64,000 nucleotides of DNA from a bacterium TMED161. Lineage in GTDB: Bacteria; Fidelibacterota; Marinisomatia; SCGC-AAA003-L08; D37C17. The notes beneath the pieces are model-generated. The model ran no database searches. It saw only the letters and a list, made by a program, of their open reading frames with translations, and was not told the DNA's origin. The translations under genes and the position numbers were made by a program. Below are positions 34,362 to 64,000 of the stretch, one piece after another (within the stretch, counting starts at the first letter, position 1; every line of letters begins with the position of its first letter). Location: the NCBI GenBank assembly GCA_002171125.1, contig NHHK01000020.1, positions 7,629-71,628 of the forward strand, written 5' to 3'.

Positions 34362-34368
34362 GAGGATT

Positions 34369-46816: not shown

Positions 46817-47085
46817 TGGGTTTTGATTTAACAGGATACGAAGAAGACAATATGGATGTAAGGCCTTTGGCCACTTATACAATTGGTGCTATTATTGCCT
46901 TAGTAATCGTAATTGTTGGAATTTACTATTATATGTTTTTTATGGGAGAGAAATATATTCAAGAGCTATTTTTAGAAAGAGATACAATGCAAACTCTTGA
47001 ATATAATAAACAGAAAACTGAATTTCTTAGTTCATCAAAATTAGAAACTGGAATGGCAAAAGCTCTAGAGAATTACAATGAATAA
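46816..47085 (+). CDS. Small single-pass membrane protein between actF and the oxidase genes (possible ActG-like or oxidase accessory subunit)
   Basis: 89 aa with one TM helix (ATYTIGAIIALVIVIVGIYYYMFF). TAATG-coupled to actF. Confidence 0.5.
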   Translation: MGFDLTGYEEDNMDVRPLATYTIGAIIALVIVIVGIYYYMFFMGEKYIQELFLERDTMQTLEYNKQKTEFLSSSKLETGMAKALENYNE

Positions 47086-47857: not shown

Positions 47858-48813
47858 TGTTTTTAAATGCAACAGAGCAAACAACATGGCTTCCACAACA
47901 AGCATCTACAATAGCCAGTGAGGTTGATGCTTTATTTTATTTTATATATTATTGGACATTAATTTTTCTTGGAATAGTTGCTTTCTGTGTATTTTACTTT
48001 GGATGGAAATATCGGAGTTCTAATAATAATAGCAAGGCTCCTAAATCTGCAAGCCATAATACTCCTCTTGAAATAGCCTGGACAGTAATTCCATTTATTC
48101 TTGTTATGATCGTTTTCTTTTGGGGTGCTGGATCTTACATGAAAATGAATGTTATTCCTTATGGTGCTATGGAAATAAATGTAAAAGCGCAAAAATGGGC
48201 TTGGAATTTTAAATATAAAGAGGGCTTTTCTAACCCTAGAGATCTAGTTGTTCCTGTTAATACGCCAATAAAACTAATTATGGAATCTCAAGATGTATTG
48301 CACAGCTTTTACGTTCCGGAGTTTCGTGTAAAAATGGACATAATTCCAAATAGGTATATGATGACATGGTTTGAAGCCACAAAAATAGGTGAATACGATC
48401 TTCTTTGTACGGAATATTGTGGTGCAAGTCATTCTGAGATGAATGGTAAAGTCATAGTCAAATCCCAAGAAGATTATGAAGATTGGCTTGAAAAAGTTAA
48501 TGTAATTGACGAATCTATTCCGCTTGTTGAAGTTGGTGAAACTGCATATGAAAAACATGCTTGTAATACTTGTCATTCTATTGATGGTAGTTCAATGATT
48601 GGGCCATCATTTAAAGGTATTTGGAATACTATAGCAGAGCACGTTTCTACTGAGGATAAATTAATTGATGAAAATTATATTAGAGAATCTATACTATATC
48701 CTCAAAAACATATCGTTAAAGGCTATGAAAATGGAAATATGCCTTCTTATAAAGGTTTAATAAGAGATAGAGAAATTGAAGGATTAATAGAGTATATTAA
48801 ATCACTTAAGTAA
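47857..48813 (+). CDS. ctaC: Cytochrome c oxidase subunit II with fused C-terminal cytochrome c domain (caa3 type)
   Basis: Two N-terminal TM helices, CuA motif [20 protein letters not shown], and a C-terminal CNTCH heme c motif. Confidence 0.92.
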
Positions 48814-48824
48814 AAAGAGGAACA

Positions 48825-50450
48825 ATGAGAGAATATTTAGAAAAAAATTATTTAAATGAAGAAACAACAATTAAATCATGGTTATTTACTGTAGACCATA
48901 AAAGAATTGGTTTAATGTATCTGTTTGCAATAATGTTCTTCTTCGCAGTAGGTGGCTTCCTAGCATTAATGATGAGATTAGAACTTTTAACGCCTGCTGG
49001 AGGAGATATCTTAGATAAAAATACTTATAACGTTTTTTATACTTTGCATGGCGCGATAATGATATTTATGTTTATTATTCCTTCAGTACCAGCAGCTATG
49101 GGTAATATAATAATGCCAATAATGTTAGGTACAAAAGATGTAGCATTTCCAAGATTAAACTTAGCTAGTTGGTATGTTTATGTTGTAGGTAGTTCTATAG
49201 GAATTTTTTCAATCATATCAGGAGGTGTTGATACAGGTTGGACATTCTATACACCCTATAGTAGCTCAACTGATACAGCAGTTATTTCAATGACATTTGC
49301 AGTATTAGTTTTAGGGTTTTCATCAATTTTTACGGGTATAAACTTTATTGTTACTATACACAAAATGAGAGCCCCTGGAATTACATGGTTTTCAATGCCT
49401 TTGTTTGTTTGGTCTTTATATGCAACAGCTTTAATTCAAATTTTAGCAACTCCAGTAATTGCTGTTACTATGCTATTATTAATTATGGAACGAACATTCC
49501 AAGTTGGAATTTTTGATCCAGCCATGGGTGGAGATCCGGTTTTATTTCAACACTTTTTCTGGTTTTATTCGCACCCAGCGGTTTACATAATGATTTTACC
49601 CGGAATGGGAATTATAAGTGAGTTAATTTCAACATTCTCAAAAAAGAAAATTTTTGGTTATACATATATCGCAGCTTCAACCATGGCTATTGCTCTATTT
49701 GGTTTTCTTGTATGGGGACATCACATGTTTACTTCACAGTCAGAGTTTGCTGCGCTTATTTTTTCAATTATTACATATCTAACAGCTTTACCCTCAGGTG
49801 TTAAAATATTTAACTGGTTAGCTACATTATACAAAGCAAAAATTAGTTATGAGGCGCCAATGCTATATGCAATAAACTTCTTATTATTGTTTGCAATTGG
49901 TGGATTGACTGGAATCTTCCTTGGAACTCTGTCTGTTGATATTATGTTGCATGATACATACTTTGTAGTTGCTCATTTCCATTATGTTATGATGGGAGGT
50001 ACTGTAATTGCATTTTTAGGAGGATTACATTATTGGTGGCCAAAGATATGGGGTCGAATGTACAGTGAGAAATGGGCAAGGATATCAGCTATTCTAATAT
50101 TCTTTGGTTTTAATTTAACATTTATTCCACAGTTTATTATGGGCTCGCTTGGAATGCCCAGAAGATATTGGCAGTATGATGGTTTAGTAAATACAGATAT
50201 ATTCCATTTTTATCATCAATTATCAACATTAGGGTCTTGGTTTATAGCAGTATCATTTATTATTATGCTAGTATACTTGGTGCATTCAATTAAATATGGT
50301 AAAGTTGCAGGTAGTAACCCTTGGGGAGCACTTACACTTGAATGGCAAACTCCATCTCCAGCACCAGCGCATAATTTTTTAGAAGAGCCAAAAATAACAC
50401 ATGGTCCTTACGATTATGATAAAGTAGAAGTGGAAAGGACAATAGATTAA
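48825..50450 (+). CDS. ctaD: Cytochrome c oxidase subunit I
   Basis: Canonical heme-copper oxidase subunit I ([48 protein letters not shown]). Confidence 0.97.
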
Positions 50451-51109
50451 TGTCTAAAGAAACAACACCTTATTTTCAACATCATTTTGTTGATCCTGAA
50501 CAGCAGTATGAATCATCTAAATTGGGAATGTGGGCTTTTTTAGTTACAGAAGTGTTGACTTTTGCTGGATTCTTTTGTGCTTATGCTATTTATAGGATGT
50601 GGAATCCTGAAATGTTTATAAATGCACATAAGGCCTTAGATGTTACTATGGGGGCAACAAATACGGTAGTTCTTATCACAAGTTCCTTAACAATGGCTCT
50701 TGCCATAAGATATGTTCAAGTTAATAAACCAAAAGTGGCATTAGTACATTTAATATTGACCTTTTTATTTGCATGCACATTTTTAGTGATTAAATATTTT
50801 GAATATGAACACAAGTTTCATTGTGGACATCTTCCAGGAGCTTTATATAATCCACATGTTTACCCTGATTGTATTCCTATCGAAGGAAATAATCCACATG
50901 TATTTTTTAGTATATATTTTATGATGACTGGACTACACGGAATTCATGTAATAGCAGGTATGGTTCTTATTTTATGGCTTATTTTTAGAACACATAAAGG
51001 TCATTTTACTTCAGCATATTATACGCCAGTTGAGATGGTTGGCTTATTTTGGCATTTAGTTGATTTAATATGGATATATCTTTTCCCACTTCTTTATTTG
51101 ATAGGATAA
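50450..51109 (+). CDS. ctaE: Cytochrome c oxidase subunit III
   Basis: TAATG-coupled. Motifs HHFVDPEQQYESSKLGMWAFLVTEV and YFMMTGLHGIHV..WHLVDLIW. Confidence 0.9.
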   Translation: MSKETTPYFQHHFVDPEQQYESSKLGMWAFLVTEVLTFAGFFCAYAIYRMWNPEMFINAHKALDVTMGATNTVVLITSSLTMALAIRYVQVNKPKVALVHLILTFLFACTFLVIKYFEYEHKFHCGHLPGALYNPHVYPDCIPIEGNNPHVFFSIYFMMTGLHGIHVIAGMVLILWLIFRTHKGHFTSAYYTPVEMVGLFWHLVDLIWIYLFPLLYLIG

Positions 51110-51111
51110 AT

Positions 51112-51480
51112 ATGAGTAATAACGAACATCACATACATATAACACCACTCAAAACATATCTTGTAATCTATTTCACTTTACTTTTAATGACTTTAATTAC
51201 ATTGATTTCTGTTCAGTTTGATTTTGGATCTTTTAATATAGTTATTGCAATGATAATTGCTTCATTCAAAGCCACATTAGTATTATTATTTTTTATGCAT
51301 TTGTTATACGATAATAAAATAAACTTAGCGTTCCTTGTAGCCTCAGTAGTGTTTTTAGCTGTTTTTATTGTTATAACTGCAGTAGATACAAATTATAGAA
51401 ATACTTTATATGACATAAGAGCTAAAGTAGTTGAAGAACAAGCTCCAGCAGAAAATTTTAGAAATAAAAAGTCTTACTAA
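51112..51480 (+). CDS. Cytochrome c oxidase subunit IV (bacterial small subunit)
   Basis: ATG at 51112. HHIHITPLKTYLVIYFTLL.. and FKATLVLLFFMHL match the prokaryotic CoxIV family. The tracked start 51070 overlaps ctaE. Confidence 0.75.
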   Translation: MSNNEHHIHITPLKTYLVIYFTLLLMTLITLISVQFDFGSFNIVIAMIIASFKATLVLLFFMHLLYDNKINLAFLVASVVFLAVFIVITAVDTNYRNTLYDIRAKVVEEQAPAENFRNKKSY

Positions 51481-51501
51481 TTACAAACTAGGTAATATCA
51501 A

Positions 51502-52065
51502 ATGAAACGTCGTAATTATATAGTAATCATTAGTTGCATCATTGTAATTATGGCTATTTTAAGTTTAAATAACATTTCATCACCAAACCCTATTCATAAA
51601 GTATCTTATTTTAGTTTTATGGATCATAATGATAATGTCTTTACAACTAATGAATTAAAGGGTAAAATAACAATTTCTGATTTCTTTTTTACATCATGTC
51701 CAGTAATATGTCCAAGAATGAGTGAGAAAATGAAAGAGTTAGCTGAAATATATAAAAATGATAAAAATATACAATTTCTTAGCATATCAGTTGATCCTGT
51801 AAATGATTCTAAGGAAGTAATAAATAATTATATAAACACAAGAAATTTAAATTATAGCAATTGGTATTTTTTACAAACTGATTCTTCAATTAGTAGTCTA
51901 TTACCAGAAGGATTCTTATTATCAGGAGATAATTTGCCCGGGATGCACCCAACAAAGTTTATTTTAATTAATTATGATGGAGAGATCGTTGGATATTATG
52001 ATCCTGCTATAGAGACTGAATTTAATATTCTTAAAAATAATACAACATACTTACTTAATTCTTGA
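51502..52065 (+). CDS. SCO1/SenC-family copper chaperone (second copy)
   Basis: N-terminal anchor, FFFTSCPVICP (CxxxC) motif and a thioredoxin-like body. Confidence 0.8.
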   Translation: MKRRNYIVIISCIIVIMAILSLNNISSPNPIHKVSYFSFMDHNDNVFTTNELKGKITISDFFFTSCPVICPRMSEKMKELAEIYKNDKNIQFLSISVDPVNDSKEVINNYINTRNLNYSNWYFLQTDSSISSLLPEGFLLSGDNLPGMHPTKFILINYDGEIVGYYDPAIETEFNILKNNTTYLLNS

Positions 52066-52067
52066 TT

Positions 52068-52934
52068 ATGTTTAAAAACTATATATCACTTACAAAGCCA
52101 AGAATATGCCTAATGGTAGCTATTTCTGCATATCTAGGGTACTACTTAGCATTAAGGGTTAATGGCTCTTATATGCTTCAATTAGATGAATGGATTATCT
52201 TTTTTCATCTAATGGTAGGTACATTACTAAGTTCTGCGGGTGCTTGCACCTTAAATCAAGCTATTGAATATAAATCTGATTTAAAAATGGAACGAACAAA
52301 GGACCGTGCTATACCTAAAGGATATATTTCGCCTTTCTCTGGTATGCTCTTTGGTATTATCTGCTCTTTGATAGGAATACTTTATCTACAGTATTATGTA
52401 AATAGCATAGTATCTCTTTTATCTTTATTAACAGTAATTAGTTATATATTCTTATATACGCCTCTAAAAAGGGTTACATATTTAAATACATTAGTGGGTG
52501 CCATTCCTGGAGCATTGCCGCCAGTTGGTGGCTGGTTTGCTGTTTCAAATGATTTCAGCTTAATTACAATTGTATTATTTTCTATAATGTTTTGCTGGCA
52601 GATACCTCATTTTCTTGCTCTTGCTTATATGTATTCTGATGATTACAAACGTGGAGGATTTATTATGCTTCCGAGTTTATATTCTAATCAAATACAAACT
52701 CGTGTACATGTTGTCTTTTTTACATTCATTTTAATCATTATTACGTTTTCACTATATTTTAGTAAACTAGTTGGAATATCATATTTGTTTTTAAATATGC
52801 TTTTGTCTTCAGGTTTTGTATATGCAGTGGTCAAATTTACTATTAATGTTAATATTAATACTGCGAGACAATTATTCTTTGCATCTATTATTTATCTTCC
52901 AATGTTGCTCTTATTAATTATTATTTCTTCTTAA
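52068..52934 (+). CDS. ctaB: Protoheme IX farnesyltransferase (heme O synthase)
   Basis: UbiA-family membrane protein. YISLTKPRI, N-Q-x-I-E-x-x-x-D-L-K-M-E-R-T-K-D-R. Start at ATG 52068 or TTG 52062. Confidence 0.9.
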   Translation: MFKNYISLTKPRICLMVAISAYLGYYLALRVNGSYMLQLDEWIIFFHLMVGTLLSSAGACTLNQAIEYKSDLKMERTKDRAIPKGYISPFSGMLFGIICSLIGILYLQYYVNSIVSLLSLLTVISYIFLYTPLKRVTYLNTLVGAIPGALPPVGGWFAVSNDFSLITIVLFSIMFCWQIPHFLALAYMYSDDYKRGGFIMLPSLYSNQIQTRVHVVFFTFILIIITFSLYFSKLVGISYLFLNMLLSSGFVYAVVKFTINVNINTARQLFFASIIYLPMLLLLIIISS

Positions 52935-52941
52935 AAAAATT

Positions 52942-53952
52942 ATGATATCAGATAGTTCCTTTTCAAAATGGTACGCCTATGGCATTGCTCTAATGATAGT
53001 TATGATTGCTATTGGAGGTATTACGCGGTTAACAGATTCTGGACTATCAATGGTCGACTGGGAGCCGGTCGCTGGTATTTTACCCCCAATTACTAATAAT
53101 CATTGGGAAGAAGAATTTAATCATTACAAGCAATACCCTGAATATAAAGAAATTAATTTAGATATGACTTTAGCTGAATTTAAAATTATATTTTTTTGGG
53201 AATATTTGCATAGAATGGTTGGTAGGATCATTGGATTATTCTTCATTATACCTCTTGTTTATATGCTTTTTAAAAAAAGAATATCTAAAAATGATCTAAA
53301 AGTTGTATTAACAATAATTTTATTAATTATTTCTCAAGGCCTACTTGGCTGGTATATGGTCATGAGTGGATTAAGCCAAAACCCATTCGTAGACCATATT
53401 CGTCTTATGTTACATTTTATGATGGCAATGATTTTAGTATCATATACATACCTGCAATACCTTAAAAAATGTAATTTAAATTCTAAAAAACTTTTAATGA
53501 GTCACAAATCTACCTTATTATTTTTCATTATAGTTTTAATTCAGATAATTTTTGGAACATTTACAGCTGGTTTGAAAGCTGGATATATTTTCAATACATA
53601 TCCATTAATGAATAACAGTTTTTTTCCATATGAGATATTATATAATAGTTCACTAGGTGTTTTTAATAGCCTTATTAACAATTTACCAACGGTTCAATAC
53701 ATTCATCGTACTATTGGATTAATCATTTTATTATGGGCAATTTATATGTTTTCACAAGCATATAAAGAAAAAGATGAGTATTTAGATGAGTTAAGATTAT
53801 CCTTTTTAATTATAATTCAATTTCTATTAGGGGTTTTAACATTGCTAACGAGTGTAAATATATATATTGCATTATTACATCAGGTTAATGCCACTTTTAT
53901 AATAATATTATTTATAAAATTAATTTATTTCAAAAAGTCTAATAGTAAATAA
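52942..53952 (+). CDS. ctaA: Heme A synthase (COX15/CtaA)
   Basis: ALMIVMIAIGGITRLTDSGLSMVDW, EYLHRMVGR and the second-half HR/H pairs (IHRTIG, LLHQ). Confidence 0.88.
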   Translation: MISDSSFSKWYAYGIALMIVMIAIGGITRLTDSGLSMVDWEPVAGILPPITNNHWEEEFNHYKQYPEYKEINLDMTLAEFKIIFFWEYLHRMVGRIIGLFFIIPLVYMLFKKRISKNDLKVVLTIILLIISQGLLGWYMVMSGLSQNPFVDHIRLMLHFMMAMILVSYTYLQYLKKCNLNSKKLLMSHKSTLLFFIIVLIQIIFGTFTAGLKAGYIFNTYPLMNNSFFPYEILYNSSLGVFNSLINNLPTVQYIHRTIGLIILLWAIYMFSQAYKEKDEYLDELRLSFLIIIQFLLGVLTLLTSVNIYIALLHQVNATFIIILFIKLIYFKKSNSK

Positions 53953-55873
53953 CTATATATGATGAAAATGCGATCTCTGGACAATATCCACAAGTTCCAC
54001 AAGTTGGTGGAGCTACACATGAGTTTCCACTCACCCTACAAGCATTATAATCAATAATATTTTCTTCACCTGTTAGAACATATTCGGTAATATCGGTTAC
54101 ATTTAAATCTACATCAAGCCCTGGACACCAGCCAGCTCTTCCATATCCCCACGTACCATATTGATTAGGGATAGTTCCCTCTTCAATCATTTCAAGTGAC
54201 ATACAATGAGTAGTTTGACTTGCTTCAGGATAGGATTGCTCAAATTCATGAACACCTCCATTTACACTAAAAATATGTTTAGAATTACAGAATTCACAAC
54301 AGTTGTAGCACGTTCCATTACCCCATCCATGCCCAGTTAAGTATGATACAAACTCTACTTTCTCTGCATAAGATGGAATTTCAAATGGGGTAGGGGGACG
54401 ATTATCATCATATTCAGGATTGAATAGTACGGTTCCACCCCAAATAGGAATTATTTCCTTTGCAGTAGGAGAATCATCAGTATTATGATAAAGTCTGATT
54501 TTCATTGTTAATAAACTATTTGGCCAACCAGATTCTTGAAATTTTATTGTTTTATTACCACCTAAAAGAGATATGAAAGGAGATATATCAGTTAAATGAT
54601 GAGGCTGACGAGCAAAGGGGGTTATCCATCGAGCAGCTTCATTGCATTCTCTGTTTGAATCCCATGTCATAGTAAAAGTATCTAGACATTCATTTTCAGA
54701 TAAATCATTATAAATGATTTGATAGCAAATCCCTTGATCTGTATCCCAAAGATTACCACCTTCTAAGCAAGTCGGTTCATCTGCATTTCCTAAATAAATT
54801 GTTTCATAGCATTGTCCACTACATATATACATTCTTGCAATTCTATCATAGTCATCACAACCATTATCACTATAATTAATATCTTCACCACATTCAATTT
54901 GAGTACTGCCACCATCAAACAAACCACAGTCAGGACATCCTCTTAGTAACTCAATAGACATTCCAGAGTAGTTTGAAAGTTCTTCATCGCTAGGGAATGA
55001 AACTTCCTTAGAAATTGTTGCTCCCCACCATCCAGAATAAAGTTCTTTTTCAAAAATAACTACTTCGTCATAAGAATCTTCAGGTTCATATAGATTATTC
55101 CATTCAGAATTAAAATATACAGGTTCATGTGCAACATAGCTTATATATGTACCAGTAAATCCATTTGGATTTCCAAGGTATCCGATTTCTCTTATTCTTT
55201 GGAATCGATCTATAGCAATAGCTCTTCTTCCTTGAAGAGCTTCAGTTAACCAATTGTTAAATCCAGAAACTTTATTGGGTACAAAATGAAGATGTTTTCT
55301 CCAATGCCTTGCTTCATCATCACTCATAGTATCTAAGATGTCATCATATATAGCTTTAATATTATTTATATCACTAACAAAAGATGTTCTGTCAGACACA
55401 AAAAAGTAATGAACATTGTCTGGAGACTTTTCTAAAAAATCTTCACGATCTGATGCATTCCAAAGGGTTGAAGAGCCTGATGCGCCAGAATATGATATGA
55501 ATACATATGTATCATTTCCATTCCATTCATTCTCGAATGACCAAGATGGATCTTCAGGTGTTAAAATATTATTTACAATTAATATAACATCTAGAATATC
55601 AATTGTAAGGTCATTATTCATATCTCCTTCATCAAACCAATCAATATTAGTTAGAGTGCCTATTATATATGAAATTTCAAGGATTATATCTTGAATGTTT
55701 ACAGTATCATCAAAATTTAAATCACCACTAAGTGTAGAGTTTAAGTCTGATATCGTAAAAGGGCCGGCTATATCAAAATATCCAGTTCCATAAGGACCTT
55801 CATGAAAGTCTTGAGCTTGAACTATAAGAATAGTAACTATGAAAGAGAGTAAAAAGCGAAAATTGAATTTCAT
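53939..55873 (-). CDS. Secreted Cys-rich protein: signal peptide, N-terminal dockerin-type repeats, C-terminal PNGase-F-like domain
   Basis: Signal peptide MKFNFRFLLSFIVTILIVQA. GDLNFDDTVNIQDIIL..GDMNNDLTIDILDVIL. The C-terminal LTGHGWG..CCEFC..H.F.VNG..GTWGYGRAGWCPGLDV resembles the peptide-N-glycosidase F C-terminal domain family (from memory). Confidence 0.7.
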   Translation of the reverse strand: MKFNFRFLLSFIVTILIVQAQDFHEGPYGTGYFDIAGPFTISDLNSTLSGDLNFDDTVNIQDIILEISYIIGTLTNIDWFDEGDMNNDLTIDILDVILIVNNILTPEDPSWSFENEWNGNDTYVFISYSGASGSSTLWNASDREDFLEKSPDNVHYFFVSDRTSFVSDINNIKAIYDDILDTMSDDEARHWRKHLHFVPNKVSGFNNWLTEALQGRRAIAIDRFQRIREIGYLGNPNGFTGTYISYVAHEPVYFNSEWNNLYEPEDSYDEVVIFEKELYSGWWGATISKEVSFPSDEELSNYSGMSIELLRGCPDCGLFDGGSTQIECGEDINYSDNGCDDYDRIARMYICSGQCYETIYLGNADEPTCLEGGNLWDTDQGICYQIIYNDLSENECLDTFTMTWDSNRECNEAARWITPFARQPHHLTDISPFISLLGGNKTIKFQESGWPNSLLTMKIRLYHNTDDSPTAKEIIPIWGGTVLFNPEYDDNRPPTPFEIPSYAEKVEFVSYLTGHGWGNGTCYNCCEFCNSKHIFSVNGGVHEFEQSYPEASQTTHCMSLEMIEEGTIPNQYGTWGYGRAGWCPGLDVDLNVTDITEYVLTGEENIIDYNACRVSGNSCVAPPTCGTCGYCPEIAFSSYIVIYY

Positions 55874-58438: not shown

Positions 58439-58450
58439 GTCTTTTCTTTG

Positions 58451-58536
58451 CGGAGAGTACGTGATTTGAACACGTGCATCCCTATTCAAGGATGACGGAT
58501 TAGCAATCCGCTGCATTACCACTCTGCCAACTCTCC
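58451..58536 (-). tRNA. tRNA-Ser(GCU)
   Basis: Reverse complement GGAGAGTTGGCAGAGTGGTAATGC..: anticodon loop TTGCTAA, long variable arm CATCCTTGAATAGGGATG, T-loop TTCAAAT, acceptor GGAGAGT/ACTCTCC. Confidence 0.9.
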
Positions 58537-58540
58537 AGTG

Positions 58541-58621
58541 CGGAAGGGACAGGATTCGAACCTGCAACCCCAGTGGGGCGACGGTTTTCAAGACCGCTTG
58601 ACAGCCGTTGTCCACCCTTCC
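58541..58621 (-). tRNA. tRNA-Ser(UGA)
   Basis: Reverse complement GGAAGGGTGGACAACGGCTGTCAAGCGGTCTTGAAAACCGT..: anticodon loop CTTGAAA, variable arm with a CCCC/GGGG stem, T-loop TTCGAAT, acceptor GGAAGGG/CCCTTCC. Its first base overlaps the stop codon of the cytochrome c gene. Confidence 0.85.
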
Positions 58622-58947
58622 TATTTAAACGTTTTTAAATACTCATGTAAATCAGGAATTTTATCCTTTAAATTAGGAAGAGCTGCCATTTGATGGTCTG
58701 GCCATTTTTTTATTCTTCCTTCAGGATGTTTTCCTGTCATAATCATACTTCTAATCAGCTCTAAGTCTGAACCTGCAATATCTGGAGCTAAAGCACCAAC
58801 TTTTCGAGGGTCCAAGTTATGACAAGATAGGCATACTGTCCTATAAATCTTTTCACCTCGATAATAAGCTTCAGATTGACCAGAAGACTTATTACCTCCG
58901 CAGCCAATAAAAATAAGTATGAAACAAATTATAAAAAACTTAATCAA
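58621..58947 (-). CDS. Monoheme class I c-type cytochrome lipoprotein
   Basis: Lipobox ILIFIG-C, a single CLSCH heme motif, and a distal Met region (SMIMTGKHPEG). Confidence 0.8.
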   Translation of the reverse strand: MIKFFIICFILIFIGCGGNKSSGQSEAYYRGEKIYRTVCLSCHNLDPRKVGALAPDIAGSDLELIRSMIMTGKHPEGRIKKWPDHQMAALPNLKDKIPDLHEYLKTFK

Positions 58948-59622
58948 TTATATATAGCAATGACTACAATACAATACTAATGTTAATAAAAGACCACAAT
59001 GAATAACGCCTTTTACACTAGTTATTGGTCCCATTTTCCCTTTAATAGCATTAGCTTCAATCAATAATATAATTATTGTTGAAAAGATTAGAGCTGACTG
59101 CGATGTGGAATCTGCACCTAATCCTCTTGCTGCACCCATAAAAAATAACATTGGAATAGAGAATAGCGTATTAGTTCTAGATGCTAAACCAGCTCTACCA
59201 AGAGCCGCCGCAGCCGTTGGATCAGCTTCACCTCCAGCAGCAACACTTTCAGAAGAGGCAATAACTATCTTCTGAGCAGGCCAAATAATTAGCCAAACAT
59301 TTAAGAACATTAATGTACCCATTAATGCACCTGTATAAATATATACATTGTATGTAAGACTAAAGTCTGGATGACCTTGGGGAAGTAACATAGCTACACC
59401 AGATAGGAATGTAAACATAGCACCCCATCTAAACCACCATAATGCACGAGGAACTAGAGTCCTAATTGCCACACCTTTAGTTTGGTCTTCAATTTCCTTA
59501 AACCATTCACCTTGAATGAAATTAAAATAATAAAGAACCCCAATCCATGTTATACCAGCAAGGAAATGGATCCATTTGAAAATAAAAAAACCTAAACCAA
59601 GATATAAGAAGAAATCATTCAT
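58948..59622 (-). CDS. Polytopic membrane protein resembling the PuuD / Urate_ox_N (HemJ/CopD-like) superfamily
   Basis: FKWIHFLAGITWIGVLYYFNF, LWWFRWGAMFTFLSG, GALMGTLMFLNVWLIIWPAQ and SRTNTLFSIPMLFFMG resemble conserved blocks of the PuuD N-terminal membrane domain (from memory). Its stop abuts the cytochrome c start. Confidence 0.5.
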   Translation of the reverse strand: MNDFFLYLGLGFFIFKWIHFLAGITWIGVLYYFNFIQGEWFKEIEDQTKGVAIRTLVPRALWWFRWGAMFTFLSGVAMLLPQGHPDFSLTYNVYIYTGALMGTLMFLNVWLIIWPAQKIVIASSESVAAGGEADPTAAAALGRAGLASRTNTLFSIPMLFFMGAARGLGADSTSQSALIFSTIIILLIEANAIKGKMGPITSVKGVIHCGLLLTLVLYCSHCYI

Positions 59623-59640: not shown

Positions 59641-60285
59641 TTATAAAGATTCTGAGTTTTCAGTTAAATAACTTGAAACACCTTCAGGAGATTCAGCCAT
59701 AGCATTGTCACCATCTTTCCATCCAGCAGGACATACTTCACCATGTTTTTGATGATGAGATAATGCATCTATCATTCTAAGCATCTCATCAATATTTCTA
59801 CCTAAAGGTAAATCGTTTAGAACGGCATGTCTAACTATGCCTTCTTCATCAATTAAGAATGAACCTCTTAATGCCACACCACCACCAACAGTCGTAGTCT
59901 CAGCACTATCTTCTGTTTCAACATAAGCTTCAGTAGCACCTGTCAAAACATCGTAATTTCTTGCGATTGACTTATCTAAATCTTGAAGTAATGGATATTT
60001 TACTTGTCCAATACCACCATTATTAACATCTGTGTTTTTCCAAGCTAAATGAGACCATCTTGAATCAACAGAACAACCGATTACCTGCGTATTTCTAGAT
60101 TCAAATTCTGACAATCTTTTATCAAATGCTAAAAGCTCTGTTGGACAAACAAAAGTGAAGTCTAAGGGATAAAAGAATAAAACTACTTTTTTACCTTTAT
60201 AATCCTCAAGGCTTACTGTGTCTATTGAATTATCTGGCATAACAGCCATCGTTTTAAAATTTGGTGCTGGTTTTGTTACTAGCAT
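59641..60285 (-). CDS. Typical 2-Cys peroxiredoxin (AhpC/Prx1 type) with an internal insertion
   Basis: Peroxidatic FYPLDFTFVCPTE and resolving HGEVCPAGW. An extra acidic/Thr-rich segment EAYVETEDSAETTTVGGG lies before the LRGSFLID strand. Confidence 0.9.
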   Translation of the reverse strand: MLVTKPAPNFKTMAVMPDNSIDTVSLEDYKGKKVVLFFYPLDFTFVCPTELLAFDKRLSEFESRNTQVIGCSVDSRWSHLAWKNTDVNNGGIGQVKYPLLQDLDKSIARNYDVLTGATEAYVETEDSAETTTVGGGVALRGSFLIDEEGIVRHAVLNDLPLGRNIDEMLRMIDALSHHQKHGEVCPAGWKDGDNAMAESPEGVSSYLTENSESL

Positions 60286-60376: not shown

Positions 60377-61840
60377 TTATCTAGCACCAATGATTAAATC
60401 TTTAATTGTTTGATAGTTTTCACCGCAAGTTGAGTTTGGATCAGGATTATTTCCAGTTAGGTTTAATCGTGATACTTCATAACCTTGTTTGTTGACAATA
60501 ACAAGATCTCTTAAAGTGATATCCCAATTGCCCCATATATCTACATCTTCAAGACATCCATATACAAACTCAATACATTCTCCATGGAACCAGGTATATC
60601 CATTTTCAATACATTCAGTTTCACCTAAAAGATTCCACTGAATTTGATCACCTACTCCCCAAGAGTGGTTATTCTCTTCGCAATCTAATTGATTATCATA
60701 TTCTTCAATAATAATAGCTGGGACATCCTGTACCCATGGAAGAATTCTTTCTTCAGTACAATTAGAACATTCATCTAGAGTATCACATATCATGCAATGA
60801 TAATCATTATTTATATATGCATATCCATTAACACCTACAAACTTAATATCATCATATCCTTCTTCAACTAAATCTAAATACATATCATTTAAAACACCGA
60901 ACCGGTGTCGACATAGACTTCAGCCAGCCTTCCCAAAATAATAAACAGATACATATTGATCTTCAATATATGAGCTTGGACCTATAGTTTCACCATAATC
61001 TGGGAAATAATATTCTGAGTTTGGGTTAATATCTTCAAGGGACCAATCATAAACTGTATCTAAGCTAGGCTCAGAATCATCAGTTTCAAAAATTTGTTCT
61101 CCAAATATTTTCATACATCCAACTTGACCTGTTAATGTCTCAGACCAATCGATACCCATATTAGTACTAGTTGAATATGTGAAATCCTCTTCTGAAAGGA
61201 GCCACAATGCTTCATCTCCATTATTTTTTGGATTGACTGATAGCCAATAGGATGCAAATGGTTCCAATAATATGCAGTCAGAATCACCTGTAAAAACATA
61301 GTATTCACGAGCAGTATTTTCACTAATTATTAATTCCCAACTACCTAAAATATCTCCTGGAGAGTTAAAATTATCTTGATGTAGGTGAATTTCAAATAAT
61401 CCCTGCCCGTCTAGGTCACCTGTTTCCAAAATTACAGAGAATGCCTCAAAAGTATATTCTACAAAAGTTGTAAATTTAACAGCTGCAGATAAACCTTCTT
61501 GGCATAAATTGGATGAATTTGATCCATCTAGTATCATGCCTACTAGAATAATTACATCTAAAACATCAATATTTGTATCTTCATTAATATCAGAAACTAT
61601 AGCTTCTTCAGTTGTTGGATTAGAATTACCTAAAATGAAACTTACAATACTAACAACATCTAAAACATCGAGATTAAAATCATTATTAATGTCTCCAATA
61701 TTATTTTCTTCAAATTGATTACAAGTTATATTCCATCCTACACCTAACTCAGGTGGAGTACCTGTATTGAAAATAGTGGATCTATCATTTTGTGAAAATG
61801 ATAAAGAAATAAATAATATAGTAATAAATAATTTCTTCAT
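60377..61840 (-). CDS. Candidate selenoprotein: signal peptide, dockerin-type repeats, beta-rich domain and a TlpA/redoxin-like thioredoxin fold with U-x-x-C (in-frame TGA at 60920-60922)
   Basis: Tracked ORFs 60920..61888 and 60377..60883 share one frame and are separated only by a TGA plus 12 sense codons. Read-through gives VSVYYFGKAG-U-SLCRHRFGVLNDMYLDLVEEGYDDIKFVGVNG. A hairpin starts 11 nt after the TGA. The likely start is the ATG at 61840 (MKKLFITILFISLSFS). Confidence 0.65.
60894..60908 (-). promoter_or_regulatory. SECIS-like hairpin downstream of TGA 60922-60920
   Basis: In minus sense: ACACC-GGUUC-GGUGU (or a 6-bp stem ACACCG/CGGUGU with a GUU loop). The spacer from the TGA is exactly 11 nt (AGUCUAUGUCG). 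Confidence 0.55.
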
Positions 61841-61884
61841 ATCTAAAGATAATACAAAGATCCTATAATTGTCAAATAGGTATA

Positions 61885-64000
61885 TCATTTTATTTCTATA
61901 GAATATGGCAGCATCATTAATGCACCTTCTTTGCTTATTTCATTAATATCAATTAAAAATTGATATTCTTTAGGCATTTCTGAAAAAAGTATTTTGTTTG
62001 AAAATAATGAGCTATTTAATAATTCTTTTTTTAGATTTTCTGTTAAGTCTCTTTTAGGATATTCAATGATATTTACATTTTTAATATTTTCAATACCTGC
62101 TTCTTTAGCAGCTAGAATAATTGCATCATCAATTCCCCCAATTTCATCAACTAAAAAATTTGATTTCGCATCATTTCCTGACCATATGCGTCCCATAGCA
62201 ATATCATCTAATTTATCAATGCTGCTAAGACTATCTCTACCAGTTATAACTCTTGATTTAAATACTAAATAGCTATCATTAATTGATTCTTCTATTTTTT
62301 TAGTTTCATATTCATTACGAAGCCTTGAAGTTGTGTAAAAGTCAGCATGTTCACCTTCTTTAGCAATAACTTCTTTATTTATTCCATATTTATTTAGCAA
62401 GGATGATGTATTGAAATTTAAACCTATTACTCCAATCGATCCTGTTACAGTCGATTCATTTGCAATTATTTTATCTGCCTGACAAGCTATATAATATCCA
62501 CCAGAAGCTGCAACATCTGACATAGAAGCTATAAATGGTTTATTGTTTTCAATATCTTCATTATTGGTTGTCAAGTCAACTTCTCTCCACATTTGATCTG
62601 AAGCAAAAGCTGAACCACCGCCACTATCAATTCTCAAGATAATTGCATCAATATTCTTATCTTCTCTAGCAGACTTAACTGCTTTATTAATAGTTTCATG
62701 ACCCATTACTGTAGAGCCAGATGGACCTTTTTGGCTCTCACCAGGCATAATTCCTCCAACAGCATATATTAGTGCAATATTATTTTTCTTTTGCGGCAAC
62801 CAATCACTTACATATTCTTTGCTTCTATCTATATCTTTCCATTTTACGATTGAATAGTTATAGTCACATTTTTCATCTTTTTCACATGTTGTTATTTCTT
62901 CTAAGTAATCTTCAAATTGATCTGGATACATAGTACTGGTAATTAAATCATTTTCTATAATTTCAGAGGTAATTGAATATGGACCATTATTTATTATGTT
63001 TTTTGTTTTTTGCTCAGACCAGGATCTGCCATTTGAGATTCCTTTAACAAAAATTGAGTATAAATTTTTTAAAAGCTGTCCATAGTTTTCTTTCATTTGT
63101 TCTGTAGCAGTTGATTCTAAAAATGGATCACCTGCTGTTTTATAAGACTCACCATCAATATTAACTCTAAAAACTTCTGGGATTATATTTAGAGTATCAA
63201 GAAAATCTTTATAAAAAGTAACTTCCATTGATAGCCCATGCAAATTTATACCTGTTAAATCATTTATGTATATTTCATCCGCCATTGAAATTAAATAGTA
63301 ATCAGTATTTGATATACCATAATCAGCATAAACGATTATTTTTTTTCCAGAATTTTTAAAAGACATTAAAGCATCATGCATTTCTTGTTTTTTAGAAAAG
63401 CCTGTTCTTACAGTTTTTAAGTCAATAATAAGTCCAGCAACTGAATCATCATTTTTAAATTTTTCGATTTCATTTAGCCACTTGCGTAATTGCTGTCCTC
63501 GTTCTTGATTTAGAAATGAAAATGGGGAAAAAGGGATTTTCCCAGGTTCTTCTTCAATAAAAAGTCCACCTAAATTAAATCTTATATATTTACGATCCTT
63601 TTTATTTGGCTTATTGAAAATATTCGTTTTTTTATGAGTCCTTGTGTAGTAACCAAAACCATATCCATAATCTGAGACTGAAGGTTTAAGCTTATTTATA
63701 TAAAATCCTTCTTTGCCAAAATCAAAACTAATTGATGCAATTAAATCAATATCATCAAAATTGAAATTATCAAAAGATTCTGTATAAAATTGTGACCTAA
63801 ATGAAACTCCATTGCCAATTGTTATATCAAAAAATGGAGAATAAGATGTTATGTCATTTATGTCTTTAAAGTTATATAAAATATCTGTACCTATTGTAAG
63901 TAAATTTGATGAAAATGGTCTAAAACCAAATCCAAATCTTCCTTCTTGTAATTCTTTTAACTCATCGTCAAAATATGTCACTAAGCCTAATGATAGAAAG
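61885..64000 (-). CDS. sppA: Signal peptide peptidase SppA, 67K type (two S49 domains), with an N-terminal extension running off the window
   Basis: The two S49 halves contain DSGGGSAFASDQ and AASGGYYIACQADKIIANESTVTGSIGV. The tracked GTG start is at 63981, but the frame stays open to base 64000, so the N-terminus may be outside the window. Confidence 0.85.
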   Translation of the reverse strand, partial: FLSLGLVTYFDDELKELQEGRFGFGFRPFSSNLLTIGTDILYNFKDINDITSYSPFFDITIGNGVSFRSQFYTESFDNFNFDDIDLIASISFDFGKEGFYINKLKPSVSDYGYGFGYYTRTHKKTNIFNKPNKKDRKYIRFNLGGLFIEEEPGKIPFSPFSFLNQERGQQLRKWLNEIEKFKNDDSVAGLIIDLKTVRTGFSKKQEMHDALMSFKNSGKKIIVYADYGISNTDYYLISMADEIYINDLTGINLHGLSMEVTFYKDFLDTLNIIPEVFRVNIDGESYKTAGDPFLESTATEQMKENYGQLLKNLYSIFVKGISNGRSWSEQKTKNIINNGPYSITSEIIENDLITSTMYPDQFEDYLEEITTCEKDEKCDYNYSIVKWKDIDRSKEYVSDWLPQKKNNIALIYAVGGIMPGESQKGPSGSTVMGHETINKAVKSAREDKNIDAIILRIDSGGGSAFASDQMWREVDLTTNNEDIENNKPFIASMSDVAASGGYYIACQADKIIANESTVTGSIGVIGLNFNTSSLLNKYGINKEVIAKEGEHADFYTTSRLRNEYETKKIEESINDSYLVFKSRVITGRDSLSSIDKLDDIAMGRIWSGNDAKSNFLVDEIGGIDDAIILAAKEAGIENIKNVNIIEYPKRDLTENLKKELLNSSLFSNKILFSEMPKEYQFLIDINEISKEGALMMLPYSIEIK

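What the first reader, a model, noticed from the sequence alone, without database searches (positions are those of the whole stretch)
60377..61840. TGA-interrupted dockerin/thioredoxin-fold gene: candidate extracytoplasmic selenoprotein with a U-x-x-C active site
On the minus strand, ORFs 60920..61888 and 60377..60883 are in the same frame. Between them lie only one TGA (60920-60922) and 12 sense codons. Read-through gives ..DQYVSVYYFGKAG-[TGA]-SLCRHRFGVLNDMYLDLVEEGYDDIKFVGVNG... This is the strand / C-x-x-C / helix / strand layout of TlpA/ResA/redoxin thioredoxin folds (compare F-W-A-S-W-C-x-P-C-R ... V-x-G-V-N). The TGA sits exactly where the N-terminal nucleophilic Cys would be, and a Cys follows three residues later. 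Neither half is a complete thioredoxin fold on its own. Exactly 11 nt 3' of the TGA starts a hairpin ACACC-GGUUC-GGUGU (60894-60908). The E. coli fdhF minimal SECIS is an upper stem-loop placed 11 nt after the UGA with a GGUC apical loop, so spacing and loop content both fit. TGA is otherwise a normal stop in this window (for example GTGA at 16730-16733 and ATGA at 23350-23353), so this is not a reassigned genetic code. The N-terminal part has a signal peptide and dockerin-type repeats. The product would therefore be a surface-tethered Sec-dependent thiol oxidoreductase, encoded next to a peroxiredoxin and a cytochrome c.
Basis: partly seen in the sequence, partly recalled or inferred. Interest (0 to 1): 0.8.

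Follow-up and report, generated by a model that had tools for sequence, protein, structure and literature searches.

The report
Known marine selenoprotein gene, confirmed
The interrupted gene is a real selenocysteine-encoding gene for a secreted thioredoxin-fold redox protein of the marine bacterial group SAR406/Marinimicrobia, but this same protein family, including a 91%-identical sequence, was already published as the "Prx-like 2" selenoprotein family in 2008.

Summary
One 487-codon minus-strand gene (60377-61840) has a single in-frame TGA (60920-60922), at the first position of a U-x-x-C motif in a thioredoxin-fold domain. A hairpin follows it.

The selenocysteine reading holds:
- The TGA is kept in 97 of 99 scored homologous sequences (98 loci plus the window).
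- The two exceptions carry Cys codons and have lost or degraded the hairpin.
- The hairpin meets the published bacterial SECIS consensus. It is held by rare synonymous codons (Arg CGG in 79/80 distinct sequences, against 1.6% of Arg codons in this window).
- A distant homologue keeps the hairpin through compensatory changes.
- TGA is an ordinary stop elsewhere in the window.
- A second selenoprotein gene (UshA-like, TGA 6501-6503) lies in the same window.

It is not new. The protein passes the NCBIfam NF053656 cut-off ("TUGYCR motif thioredoxin fold (seleno)protein"). It is 91% identical to a read listed under "Prx-like 2" in Zhang & Gladyshev 2008.

- Assignment to Marinimicrobia.
- The domain layout.
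- An invariant Arg at the usual cis-Pro position.
- A peroxiredoxin gene directly downstream in 14 of 16 loci.

The selA/B/C/D genes of this genome could not be checked. Function remains untested.

The parts
60377..61840 (-). Complete selenoprotein gene, 487 aa with Sec at residue 307. Start ATG 61840 (MKKLF...), stop TAA 60377-60379.
   Evidence: Orthologues start at the same MK-hydrophobic segment. A promoter-like match at 61875-61846 lies just upstream of this ATG; this is weak evidence.
61790..61840 (-). N-terminal signal peptide (MKKLFITILFISLSFSQ). No lipobox Cys, so signal peptidase I type is inferred.
   Evidence: Read from the sequence. The same n/h/c layout followed by a conserved (D/N)RST(I/L)(F/Y) motif occurs in all full-length orthologues. 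No signal-peptide predictor was available.
61535..61696 (-). Dockerin-like pair of Ca-binding repeats (residues 49-102).
   Evidence: Pfam Dockerin_1 20.8 bits, below the 22.9 cut-off, in the window protein. PF00404 is precomputed for most homologues. The homologue model shows three helices there.
61178..61519 (-). Choice-of-anchor R beta-sandwich domain (residues 108-221).
   Evidence: NCBIfam NF041539, 31.8 bits against a cut-off of 30. This region is all-beta in the homologue model.
60380..61066 (-). Thioredoxin-fold redoxin domain (residues 259-487) of the NF053656 / GOS 'Prx-like 2' family. It spans the TGA.
   Evidence: NF053656, 104.8 bits against a cut-off of 100. Homologues score 101-184 bits. 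In the AlphaFold model of homologue P0043 (pLDDT 89) the best PDB matches are TlpA/ResA/DsbE-like proteins.
60920..60922 (-). Sec codon UGA (residue 307), first position of the U-S-L-C motif.
   Evidence: TGA in 97 of 99 scored homologous sequences (98 loci plus the window), Cys codon in the other 2. It aligns to the first Cys of WCPPC in 2lus. In the model it lies in the loop just before helix alpha1.
60911..60913 (-). Cys310, the resolving partner of the U-x-x-C motif.
   Evidence: Invariant in all aligned homologues.
60893..60909 (-). SECIS-type hairpin: 7-bp stem GACACCG/CGGUGUU with a GUU loop (equally a 6-bp stem with a GGUUC loop). The loop begins 17 (or 16) nt after the UGA.
   Evidence: Meets all four criteria of the published bSECIS consensus. 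Loop GUU in 80/80 distinct TGA sequences; three inner pairs 100% paired. Arg CGG 79/80 and Phe TTC 79/80, although CGG is 1.6% and TTC 17% of their codon families in this window. L018 keeps the hairpin with three two-sided compensatory changes. The Cys forms L019 and L089 lack or relax it.
60509..60511 (-). Invariant Arg444, immediately before strand beta3. This is the position of the cis-Pro in thioredoxin-type oxidoreductases and of the catalytic Arg in peroxiredoxins.
   Evidence: Invariant in A4 and A5. It aligns to the Pro of 'IPALVIV' in 2lus. In the model, R375 of P0043 directly precedes beta3 (376-380). A weak hhalign match places it on the Arg of the neighbouring Prx (not significant).
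60542..60724 (-). Clade-specific 61-residue insertion with four Cys inside the redoxin domain (residues 373-433).
   Evidence: Present only in the window clade (window and L003), absent from the other orthologues. It splits the NF053656 match into two stretches.
60758..60796 (-). C-M-I-C ... C-x-x-C cysteine cluster (residues 349-361). It is optional in the family.
   Evidence: Present in most orthologues but missing in L006 and L011-L014. A weak Pfam ZZ zinc-finger hit is below threshold.
59641..60285 (-). Downstream 2-Cys peroxiredoxin gene (Cys-type, no signal peptide), 91 nt after the selenoprotein gene. Conserved neighbour, possibly co-transcribed.
   Evidence: NF011576, 236 bits. It lies immediately downstream in 14 of 16 loci. 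No terminator-like site on the minus strand between the two genes.

Best explanation
This is one gene for a secreted selenoprotein of a Marinimicrobia (SAR406) bacterium.

The ribosome reads UGA 60920-60922 as selenocysteine. A small conserved hairpin lies 13-29 nt downstream, inside the coding sequence. It acts as a bacterial SECIS element that recruits SelB carrying Sec-tRNA(Sec). This step is inferred from the conservation pattern and was not shown directly.

The product has four parts: a signal peptide, a dockerin-like module, a choice-of-anchor R domain and a C-terminal thioredoxin-fold domain.

In that last domain Sec307 sits at the start of helix alpha1, where the attacking Cys of a CxxC motif normally is. 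Cys310 follows three residues later.

The most likely chemistry is attack of the selenolate on an oxidised substrate outside the cytoplasm, followed by formation of an internal Se-S bond with Cys310. An unknown reductant would then reset the enzyme.

My split for the substrate is:
- about 0.5 for protein or small-molecule disulfides (TlpA/ResA-like);
- about 0.3 for peroxides (peroxiredoxin/GPx-like);
- about 0.2 for something else.
The invariant Arg in place of the cis-Pro and the conserved peroxiredoxin neighbour are the reasons the peroxide option carries as much as 0.3.

The gene belongs to the family published as 'Prx-like 2' (GOS, 2008) and modelled by NCBIfam NF053656.
For: One frame with a single TGA.

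Conservation of the TGA:
- TGA in all 16 loci first examined and in 97 of 99 scored sequences overall, with a conserved frame continuing downstream; all 17 genes read in full end in TAA.
- Database proteins either stop at ...YYFGKAG, start just after the TGA, or show 'W' where the DNA has TGA.

Cys forms with Cys at the Sec site:
- P0090, P0100, P0222/L019 (TGC) and L089 (TGT).

Hairpin:
- It fits the bSECIS consensus of PMC13188914.
- The run CAC-CGG-TTC-GGT has an expected frequency of about 1.6e-4 from this window's codon usage, yet it is nearly invariant.
- Compensatory stem changes in L018; the hairpin is gone in L019 and its codons are relaxed in L089.

Code and machinery:
- TGA is a normal stop in 7 of 51 ORFs, and only two credible in-frame TGAs exist in the window.
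- The other one is in a UshA-like gene matching NF041198 continuously across its TGA.
- The SAG that supplies orthologue L005 (SCGC AAA003-L08) is listed among Sec-utilising organisms with 5 known selenoproteins. There the Sec trait means SelD/SelA/SelB (PMC5029168 Table S2).

Family and fold:
- NF053656 cut-off passed.
- 91% identity (203/222) to JCVI_READ_1169798, listed under '#Prx-like 2' in Dataset S1 of PMC2398784.
- Fold and active-site register.
Against: - No selA, selB, selD or tRNA-Sec is in the window or in the loci scanned for tRNAs. The rest of this genome could not be examined.
- No protein-level evidence of Sec insertion is available.
- Covariation among the first 17 sequences is not significant. 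Support for the hairpin rests mostly on conservation plus a few compensatory cases.
- Rfam has no matching SECIS model.
- The catalytic function is entirely inferred.
- No reductant partner was identified, and a surface location would put the enzyme out of reach of DsbD/CcdA-type systems.
- The structure model is of a homologue with Trp at the Sec site, not of the window protein.
Confidence: 0.92

Rival explanations
1. The TGA is a true stop. The locus then holds two genes (or a pseudogene, or a sequencing error): a 306-aa dockerin / choice-of-anchor protein and a separate 168-aa protein starting at ATG 60883.
For: Gene callers annotate it this way in public data. Every fetched protein of the 298-322-aa group (P0001, P0010, P0014, P0020, P0033), plus P0040, P0044 and P0045, ends at ...GKAG. 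Many fragments start just after the TGA.
Against: The same TGA recurs in 97 independent assemblies, so it is not an error. The 12 codons between the TGA and the ATG are among the most conserved in the gene and hold the invariant Cys. The Met is Leu in 14 of 17 orthologues. Neither half is a complete fold: beta1 lies before the TGA and alpha1 after it. Full-length Cys forms exist.
Confidence: 0.02
2. UGA is read through as a standard amino acid (Trp or Gly by code 4/25-like reassignment, or Cys/Trp by near-cognate suppression), without selenocysteine.
For: Some public gene calls translate the site as W. The sel genes were not seen in this window.
Against: TGA terminates 7 of 51 long ORFs here, including overlapping gene pairs. 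Only two in-frame TGAs exist, both at the Sec sites of curated selenoprotein families. The conserved hairpin that disappears when TGA becomes TGT/TGC is what SelB-dependent decoding predicts, and simple suppression does not predict it. A relative that carries the orthologue has the Sec trait.
Confidence: 0.04
3. Both products matter. Termination at the UGA gives a truncated surface protein without the redox domain, and the full selenoprotein is made only when selenium is available. The UGA/SECIS would then act as a selenium-dependent switch.
For: Sec decoding competes with release factor 2 in studied bacteria (general knowledge). The N-terminal part consists of complete domains.
Against: Nothing here speaks for a function of the truncated form. 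Homologues place the redoxin domain first and the anchor last (P0197, P0201, P0253). In those, termination at the UGA would leave only about 50 residues, so a switch cannot be a family-wide feature.
Confidence: 0.05
4. The hairpin is an intrinsic terminator or attenuator, or is merely a by-product of the conserved peptide R-H-R-F-G-V, and not a SECIS.
For: In the window the stem is followed by UUUUAAAU. The peptide is conserved, and covariation in 17 sequences is not significant.
Against: The U-run is not conserved (GUCCUCAAU and similar in many orthologues). The terminator scan does not call it. The codon choice is far from the genome's usage at synonymous sites. L018 keeps the stem with a different peptide (R-S-Q-F-G-F) through compensatory changes. 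The Cys form L089 keeps the peptide R-H-R-F-G-I but relaxes the codons.
Confidence: 0.03

Closest known systems
'Prx-like 2' selenoprotein family of the Global Ocean Sampling selenoproteome (Zhang & Gladyshev 2008, PMC2398784)
   Same: The published read JCVI_READ_1169798 is 91% identical over 222 residues, including ...YYFGKAG-U-SLCRHRFGVLNDMYLD. It has the same UxxC motif and the same marine distribution. The paper lists 99 Sec and 100 Cys sequences in GOS. It also notes fusions to unknown domains and one read with adjacent Prx and Prx-like 2 genes.
   Different: Nothing of substance. The window supplies a full-length gene and 64 kb of genomic context. The authors then said the family had no strong homologue in any sequenced prokaryotic genome. 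It can now be placed in Marinimicrobia/SAR406.
NCBIfam NF053656, 'TUGYCR motif thioredoxin fold (seleno)protein' (domain model)
   Same: The window protein (U replaced by C) scores 104.8 bits against a cut-off of 100, and nine homologues score 101-184 bits over the whole model. The U/C-x-x-C-R core is shared.
   Different: The local motif is G-U-S-L-C-R, not T-U-G-Y-C-R. A 61-residue Cys-containing insertion splits the match. The domain is fused to dockerin-like and choice-of-anchor R modules. The family name appears in none of the papers searched.
TlpA / ResA / CcmG(DsbE) extracytoplasmic thiol:disulfide oxidoreductases
   Same: These are the best structural matches (TM 0.69-0.79 normalised to the target). 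Shared features are the N-terminal F-x-L-x-D-x-N hairpin region, the redox motif at the start of alpha1, and export by a signal peptide.
   Different: Sec replaces the first Cys. An invariant Arg stands where these enzymes have the cis-Pro. There is no significant Pfam match to AhpC-TSA, Redoxin or thioredoxin families.
Peroxiredoxins (AhpC/Prx, including the Sec form PrxU with T-x-x-U)
   Same: Same fold superfamily (TM 0.55-0.66). The Arg lies nine residues before the conserved Gly of the beta3-beta4 turn, as in R-x-x-F-h-h-D-x-x-G. Cys310 aligns with the peroxidatic Cys position. A Prx gene is the conserved neighbour.
   Different: The P-x-x-x-T-x-x-C motif is absent. Sec is at the Thr position, not the peroxidatic position. 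PF00578 scores 12.8 bits against 26. hhalign to the neighbouring Prx is not significant.
Bacterial SECIS elements (E. coli fdhF type; consensus of bSECISearch as summarised in PMC13188914)
   Same: A stem-loop immediately 3' of the UGA inside the ORF, with G then U at the start of a small apical loop. Spacing is 16-17 nt, the stem has 7 bp and the energy is -8.2 kcal/mol, so all four consensus criteria are met.
   Different: There is no sequence similarity to fdhF. The element is very short with a triloop. The spacing sits at the lower edge of the allowed range.

Membership tests
Bacterial selenoprotein gene (Sec-UGA plus SECIS) | In-frame UGA conserved among orthologues, with a conserved open frame downstream | tested here: met
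   TGA in 97 of 99 scored homologous sequences (98 loci plus the window). All 17 fully read genes continue to a TAA stop.
Bacterial selenoprotein gene (Sec-UGA plus SECIS) | Homologues with Cys aligned to the UGA (Sec/Cys pair) | tested here: met
   P0090 (C-G-I-C), P0100 (C-G-T-C), P0222/L019 (TGC) and L089 (TGT).
Bacterial selenoprotein gene (Sec-UGA plus SECIS) | [quoted passage not shown] | tested here: met
   7 bp, loop GUU, 17 nt spacing, -8.2 kcal/mol. The criteria come from PMC13188914. Conserved in 80/80 distinct TGA sequences. Some orthologues give only -5.3 to -6.8 kcal/mol for the local 27-nt segment.
Bacterial selenoprotein gene (Sec-UGA plus SECIS) | selA, selB, selC (tRNA-Sec) and selD present in the same genome | not testable with these tools
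   None in the 64-kb window, and no tRNA-Sec in 16 loci. Indirect support comes from a second selenoprotein gene in the window. In addition, the SAG SCGC AAA003-L08, which carries orthologue L005, is listed as Sec-utilising.
Bacterial selenoprotein gene (Sec-UGA plus SECIS) | Selenium actually incorporated at the UGA (75Se labelling or mass spectrometry) | not testable with these tools
   No experimental data were found for this family in the papers read.
NCBIfam NF053656 redoxin_TUGYCR / GOS 'Prx-like 2' | Score at or above the curated cut-off (100 bits) | tested here: met
   104.8 bits with U written as C. Homologues score 100.9-184.2 bits.
NCBIfam NF053656 redoxin_TUGYCR / GOS 'Prx-like 2' | Literal T-U-G-Y-C-R motif | tested here: not met
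   The window has G-U-S-L-C-R. Only U, C and R of the name motif are kept. The model is defined by its score, not by the motif.
NCBIfam NF053656 redoxin_TUGYCR / GOS 'Prx-like 2' | Sequence identity to published members | tested here: met
   91% (203/222) to JCVI_READ_1169798, listed under '#Prx-like 2'.
TlpA/ResA/CcmG thiol:disulfide oxidoreductases | Thioredoxin fold with the redox motif at the N-terminus of alpha1 | tested here: met
   Model of homologue P0043 and the PDB fold search, plus the profile alignment to 2lus.
TlpA/ResA/CcmG thiol:disulfide oxidoreductases | Conserved cis-Pro immediately before beta3 | tested here: not met
   An invariant Arg occupies that position.
Peroxiredoxin (PF00578 AhpC-TSA) | P-x-x-x-T-x-x-C(U) active-site motif and a Pfam score above the gathering threshold | tested here: not met
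   The motif is G-K-A-G-U-S-L-C. PF00578 scores 12.8 bits against 26.
Peroxiredoxin (PF00578 AhpC-TSA) | Catalytic Arg before beta3 | tested here: inconclusive
   An Arg is present at the equivalent sequence position.
Dockerin type I (PF00404) | Pfam score above the gathering threshold | tested here: inconclusive
   20.8 against 22.9 bits in the window protein. PF00404 is precomputed for most homologues. No cohesin partner was sought.
Choice-of-anchor R domain (NF041539) | Score at or above the curated cut-off (30 bits) | tested here: met
   31.8 bits, residues 108-221.

The most novel reading that the evidence does not exclude
The family may be a cell-surface selenoenzyme that works like a peroxidase, not like a disulfide reductase. 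Four observations suggest this:
- a U-x-x-C centre combined with a peroxiredoxin-type Arg where thioredoxin-like reductases have a cis-Pro;
- anchoring modules that place the domain outside the cell (dockerin-like, T9SS tail, choice-of-anchor);
- conserved linkage to a 2-Cys peroxiredoxin gene;
- near-universal retention of Sec in an aerobic, oxic-water lineage.

If so, abundant SAR406 bacteria would remove peroxides or other oxidants at their surface with selenium. That would link marine selenium supply to oxidative-stress ecology.
Probability: 0.2. Interest if true: 0.5.

Novelty: already known. Interest (0 to 1): 0.2.

Why it matters
As a discovery it matters little. The gene family, and this clade of it, was predicted as a selenoprotein in 2008 and is covered by a curated NCBI model.

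There are two practical points:
- Public gene calls still get it wrong almost everywhere. It is split into two 'hypothetical proteins', or translated with Trp at the Sec site because a code-4 model was chosen. Protein catalogues of SAR406 therefore lack this redox domain.
- The family is now tied to a named, abundant ocean lineage with full gene context. It has an unusual active-site make-up: Sec-x-x-Cys plus an Arg at the cis-Pro position. That makes it a tractable target for a first biochemical test of what an extracytoplasmic selenoprotein does in marine bacteria.

Tried and rejected
- Rfam at gathering thresholds on the whole window, and at permissive E-values on 60840-60960, found tRNAs only or noise, with no SECIS family.
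- Pfam gives no significant thioredoxin-type hit for the redox domain (AhpC-TSA E = 0.12).
- Covariation counting on the first 17 sequences was not better than shuffles. Only the larger set and the distant L018 gave compensatory cases.
- The 61-nt fold z-score is unremarkable.
- The window protein itself could not be modelled.
- hhalign of the family profile against the neighbouring Prx aligned only 16 columns around the Arg (E = 0.24).
- The tRNA-Ser(UGA) at 58540-58621 was checked as a possible tRNA-Sec and rejected. Its anticodon loop reads CUUGAAA, so the anticodon is UGA, which reads UCA.
- The rhodanese ORF 5442-5933, which has weak hits to selenoprotein models, ends in TAG and has a normal Cys active site. 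It is not a selenoprotein.
- All 51 other long ORFs (150 aa or more) of the window were scanned with NCBIfam, and no selA, selB or selD was found.
- Two further in-frame TGA 'split ORFs' (61716-61718 on +, 7319-7321 on -) are antisense artefacts of real genes.
- A terminator reading of the hairpin was rejected.
Full report
**What is in the sequence**

On the minus strand, ORFs 60920..61888 and 60377..60883 share a frame. Translating from ATG 61840 to 60377 gives 488 codons with one internal stop. That stop is TGA at 60920-60922, in the context ...VSVYYFGKAG-TGA-SLCRHRFGVLND-MYLDL.... Twelve sense codons separate it from the first ATG of the downstream ORF. The gene ends in TAA (60377-60379).

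It extends to a 7-bp stem with a GUU loop (60909-60893).

The start at 61840 (MKKLFITILFISLSFSQ...) is preferred over ATG 61888. Orthologues begin with the same short basic plus hydrophobic segment. ATG 61888 abuts the stop of the upstream SppA gene.

**Is the TGA an error, a stop, or a recoded codon?**

A search with the fused protein found two kinds of hit. One kind is proteins of about 300-320 aa; all those fetched end at ...YYFGKAG. The other is three longer proteins that read GKAG-W-SxCR. In the DNA of two of these longer proteins (P0042 and P0043) the W is a TGA, so the gene caller had chosen code 4.

A scan of one genome per species found 14 loci. Seven are labelled Marinimicrobia or Neomarinimicrobiota, and the other seven are labelled only 'bacterium' or 'uncultured bacterium'. 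All 16 loci held at that point have TGA at the same site and end in TAA.

A metagenome scan added 80 loci. Of 99 scored sequences, 97 have TGA, one has TGC (L019) and one has TGT (L089).

A full HMMER pass over 1.84 billion representative proteins used the 180 residues after the TGA. It returned mostly fragments that begin right after the TGA. It also returned full-length Cys forms: P0090 (...YYFTRAA-C-GIC-QHRF) and P0100 (...YYFSSVH-C-GTC-QVRF). P0222 is a third Cys form.

The Met that starts the 168-aa ORF is Leu in 14 of 17 orthologues. The 12 codons before it include the invariant Cys and Arg-Phe.

In this window TGA ends 7 of 51 long ORFs, and GC content is 30.8%. A scan for split ORFs found only two credible in-frame TGAs. 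A sequencing error, a two-gene reading and a reassigned code are therefore all excluded.

**The RNA element**

The published bacterial SECIS consensus requires:
- a 3-9 nt apical loop;
- a 4-16 bp upper stem;
- G in one of the first two loop positions, usually followed by G or U;
- 16-37 nt between the UGA and the loop;
- a free energy of -7.5 kcal/mol or lower (PMC13188914).

The window element has a 7-bp stem, a GUU loop, 17 nt spacing and -8.2 kcal/mol, so it meets all of these.

The hairpin overlaps the codons for R-H-R-F-G-V, so peptide and RNA constraints are mixed. Synonymous sites separate them. Among 80 distinct TGA-containing sequences:
- the second Arg is CGG in 79;
- Phe is TTC in 79;
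- the preceding codon ends in C in 76 (the other 4 are CAT);
- Gly is GGT in 73.

In this window CGG is 1.6% of Arg codons, TTC 17% of Phe, CAC 14% of His and GGT 40% of Gly. The expected frequency of the four-codon run is about 1.6e-4. Other invariant residues nearby use their codons freely: the upstream Phe is TTT in 14 and TTC in 3, and the neighbouring Arg uses six codons.

Covariation in the first 17 sequences is not significant. In the larger set, pair 17-27 is A-U in 66, C-G in 5 and G-C in 1. The three inner pairs are always formed.

Three natural controls are informative:
- L018, from a 52% GC organism, encodes a different peptide (C-R-S-Q-F-G-F). It keeps TGA and a 7-bp stem with a GUU loop in the same register, through three two-sided compensatory changes (GAAGCCA GUU UGGCUUC).
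- L019 (TGC, 61% GC) has no hairpin.
- L089 is a close Marinimicrobia-type relative with TGT. It keeps the peptide R-H-R-F-G-I but relaxes the codons to CAT CGG TTT GGG ATA.

This is the pattern expected of a SECIS. It is not expected of a terminator or of a by-product of the peptide. The U-run after the stem is not conserved, and the terminator scan does not call the site.

**Does the organism use selenocysteine?**

The window holds no tRNA-Sec and no selA, selB or selD. The 82-nt tRNA at 58540-58621 is an ordinary tRNA-Ser with anticodon UGA. The rest of the genome could not be reached.

There are two indirect supports:
- The window contains a second candidate selenoprotein gene. It is a lipoprotein of the UshA-like family (6375-7532, plus strand) with ...ETEPCG-TGA-PKNPLGG... 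at 6501-6503. A hairpin GGGC GGUCUU GCCC follows. With U written as C it matches NCBIfam NF041198 'UshA-like (seleno)protein' in one stretch across the TGA. It scores 192.9 bits, below the full-length cut-off of 275 because the C-terminal third of the model is missing.
- Locus L005 comes from Marinimicrobia SAG SCGC AAA003-L08. [quoted passage not shown] The Sec trait there is defined by SelD, SelA and SelB. Three other SAR406 SAGs were listed in that paper as having 'orphan SelD', most simply because single-cell genomes are incomplete.

**What the protein is**

NCBIfam places residues 264-375 and onward in NF053656, 'TUGYCR motif thioredoxin fold (seleno)protein' (104.8 bits, cut-off 100). 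It places residues 108-221 in the choice-of-anchor R domain (31.8 bits, cut-off 30). Pfam gives a dockerin match just below threshold at residues 49-102. It gives nothing significant for the redox domain. Nine homologues, both Cys and Sec forms, pass the NF053656 cut-off over the whole model.

The window sequence itself could not be submitted for modelling. A 60-sequence alignment headed by homologue P0043 gave a confident model (pLDDT 89.1, pTM 0.73). P0043 is 58% identical in the redox domain and has W at the Sec site.

The best PDB matches of the model are TlpA/ResA/DsbE-type thiol:disulfide oxidoreductases (TM 0.69-0.79 relative to the target). Sco, Bcp/peroxiredoxins and glutathione peroxidases follow.

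In the model the Sec position (W292) lies in the loop between beta1 (282-288) and helix alpha1 (293-311). This is exactly where a CxxC motif sits. A family profile aligns ...yYfgkagCslCrarf... to FYFSAHWCPPCRGF of the thioredoxin-like protein 2lus (E = 0.0012). That puts Sec on the attacking Cys.

The same alignment and the model put the invariant Arg (R444 here, R375 in P0043) on the residue immediately before beta3. That is the place of the cis-Pro in thioredoxin-type oxidoreductases. From established knowledge of peroxiredoxins, it is also the place of their catalytic Arg. A weak hhalign match to the neighbouring Prx gives the same register but is not significant.

The redox domain always comes with export and anchoring features:
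- a signal peptide in all forms;
- a dockerin-like module plus choice-of-anchor R in Marinimicrobia;
- a T9SS C-terminal sorting domain in others (P0197, P0214);
- a C-terminal dockerin (P0201, P0228, P0253);
- a lipoprotein-like leader (P0135).

The window clade has an extra 61-residue insertion with four Cys (60542-60724).

**How it most likely works**

Shown here:
- one gene;
- a conserved UGA with a SECIS-type hairpin;
- a thioredoxin fold with Sec-x-x-Cys at the catalytic position;
- export signals.

Inferred:
- SelB-dependent Sec insertion;
- a catalytic cycle in which the Sec307 selenolate attacks an oxidised substrate and Cys310 resolves the intermediate into a Se-S bond;
- an extracytoplasmic, probably surface, location.

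The substrate is open. The fold neighbours favour disulfide exchange. The Arg at the cis-Pro position favours a peroxide-type reaction. So does the conserved linkage to a 2-Cys peroxiredoxin gene: it lies directly downstream in 14 of 16 loci, 91 nt away here, with no terminator-like site between.

I put these at roughly 0.5 and 0.3. No reductant partner was identified.

**Comparison with what is known**

The family is not new. Table 2 of Zhang & Gladyshev 2008 (PMC2398784) lists 'Prx-like 2':
- weak similarity to pfam04592;
- a UxxC motif;
- 99 Sec sequences in 23 GOS samples and 100 Cys homologues.

The paper describes it as a very distant homologue of peroxiredoxins with no strong homologue in any sequenced prokaryotic genome. 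It notes that the family is more abundant in marine samples, that it is fused to unknown domains, and that one read carries adjacent Prx and Prx-like 2 genes.

Their Dataset S1 lists JCVI_READ_1169798 under '#Prx-like 2'. This read ends ...YYFGKAGUSLCRHRFGVLNDMYLD and is 91% identical (203/222) to the window protein. T9SS-tail and dockerin forms are in the same list. One of our hits even carries a precomputed PF04592 match (P0193).

The UshA-like family (COG0737, CxU) is in the same table. A 2026 review of prokaryotic selenoproteins also lists it. NF053656 and 'TUGYCR' do not appear in that review or in any paper searched.

**Verdict**

The finding is nonetheless a rediscovery of a published, curated selenoprotein family.

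- the taxonomic home (Marinimicrobia/SAR406);
- the full architecture;
- a quantitative case for the SECIS, with natural Cys revertants;
- the Arg-for-cis-Pro feature;
- the conserved Prx neighbour.

Interest is low (0.2). The most novel reading still open is a surface selenoperoxidase. I give it about 0.2 probability.

Noticed in passing
window 6375-7532 (+), TGA at 6501-6503: A second candidate selenoprotein gene. It encodes a lipoprotein (leader ...ILAGC) of the UshA-like metallophosphoesterase family with ...ETEPCG-U-PKNPLGG.... A hairpin GGGC GGUCUU GCCC lies about 15 nt after the UGA. It matches NF041198 continuously across the TGA (192.9 bits, below the 275 cut-off because the C-terminal third is missing). 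The family is already known (GOS 'COG0737, UshA-like', CxU).
   Followed up: partly
window 5442-6366 (+): A membrane-anchored rhodanese (Cys active site, TAG stop, not a selenoprotein) overlaps a MauE/DoxX membrane protein gene. Both lie directly upstream of the UshA-like selenoprotein gene, which has weak SoxB similarity. Together they may form a periplasmic sulfur-handling module.
   Followed up: partly
public proteins P0041-P0043, P0125, P0132, P0135, P0136, P0140-P0142, P0197 and others; loci L001, L002, L017, L018: Public gene calls for this family either split the gene at the TGA or show Trp at the Sec site, apparently because a code-4 model was picked for low-GC contigs. The redox domain is therefore mis-annotated in nearly all records.
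   Followed up: yes
L089 (metagenome contig Ga0066857_10032586): A close Marinimicrobia-type relative in which Sec has been replaced by Cys (TGT). The SECIS codons are relaxed (CAT CGG TTT GGG ATA). This is a natural Sec-to-Cys conversion inside the clade.
   Followed up: partly
window 58450-58621 (-): A tandem pair tRNA-Ser(GCU) and tRNA-Ser(UGA) lies downstream of the selenoprotein-Prx block, and the same pair is found downstream in most related loci. The Ser(UGA) tRNA is short (82 nt) and scores only 40 bits with the Rfam tRNA model.
   Followed up: partly
window 58621-59622 (-): A membrane protein with a Urate_ox_N (PuuD-like) domain is followed by a separate small cytochrome c. In known PuuD-type proteins the two parts are fused (from general knowledge; not tested here).
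   Followed up: no
window 39664-53952 (+): An aerobic respiratory block: Qrc/alternative-complex-III-like subunits, cytochrome c oxidase subunits II, I and III, heme O synthase and heme A synthase. It fits an oxygen-respiring Marinimicrobia.
   Followed up: no
window 66-3035 (+) and 53939-55873 (-): Two more large, probably secreted proteins. One is a 989-aa protein with a Big_1 domain and a C-terminal dockerin above the Pfam threshold. The other is a 644-aa protein with a PNGase F C-terminal-like domain. Dockerin-like modules seem to be a common anchoring device in this organism.
   Followed up: no
window 19176-22060 and 33261-39398 (+): Amino-acid catabolism genes: L-lysine 6-transaminase with piperideine-6-carboxylate dehydrogenase; 4-hydroxyphenylpyruvate dioxygenase with a homogentisate dioxygenase-like gene; and acetoacetate-CoA ligase.
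   Followed up: no
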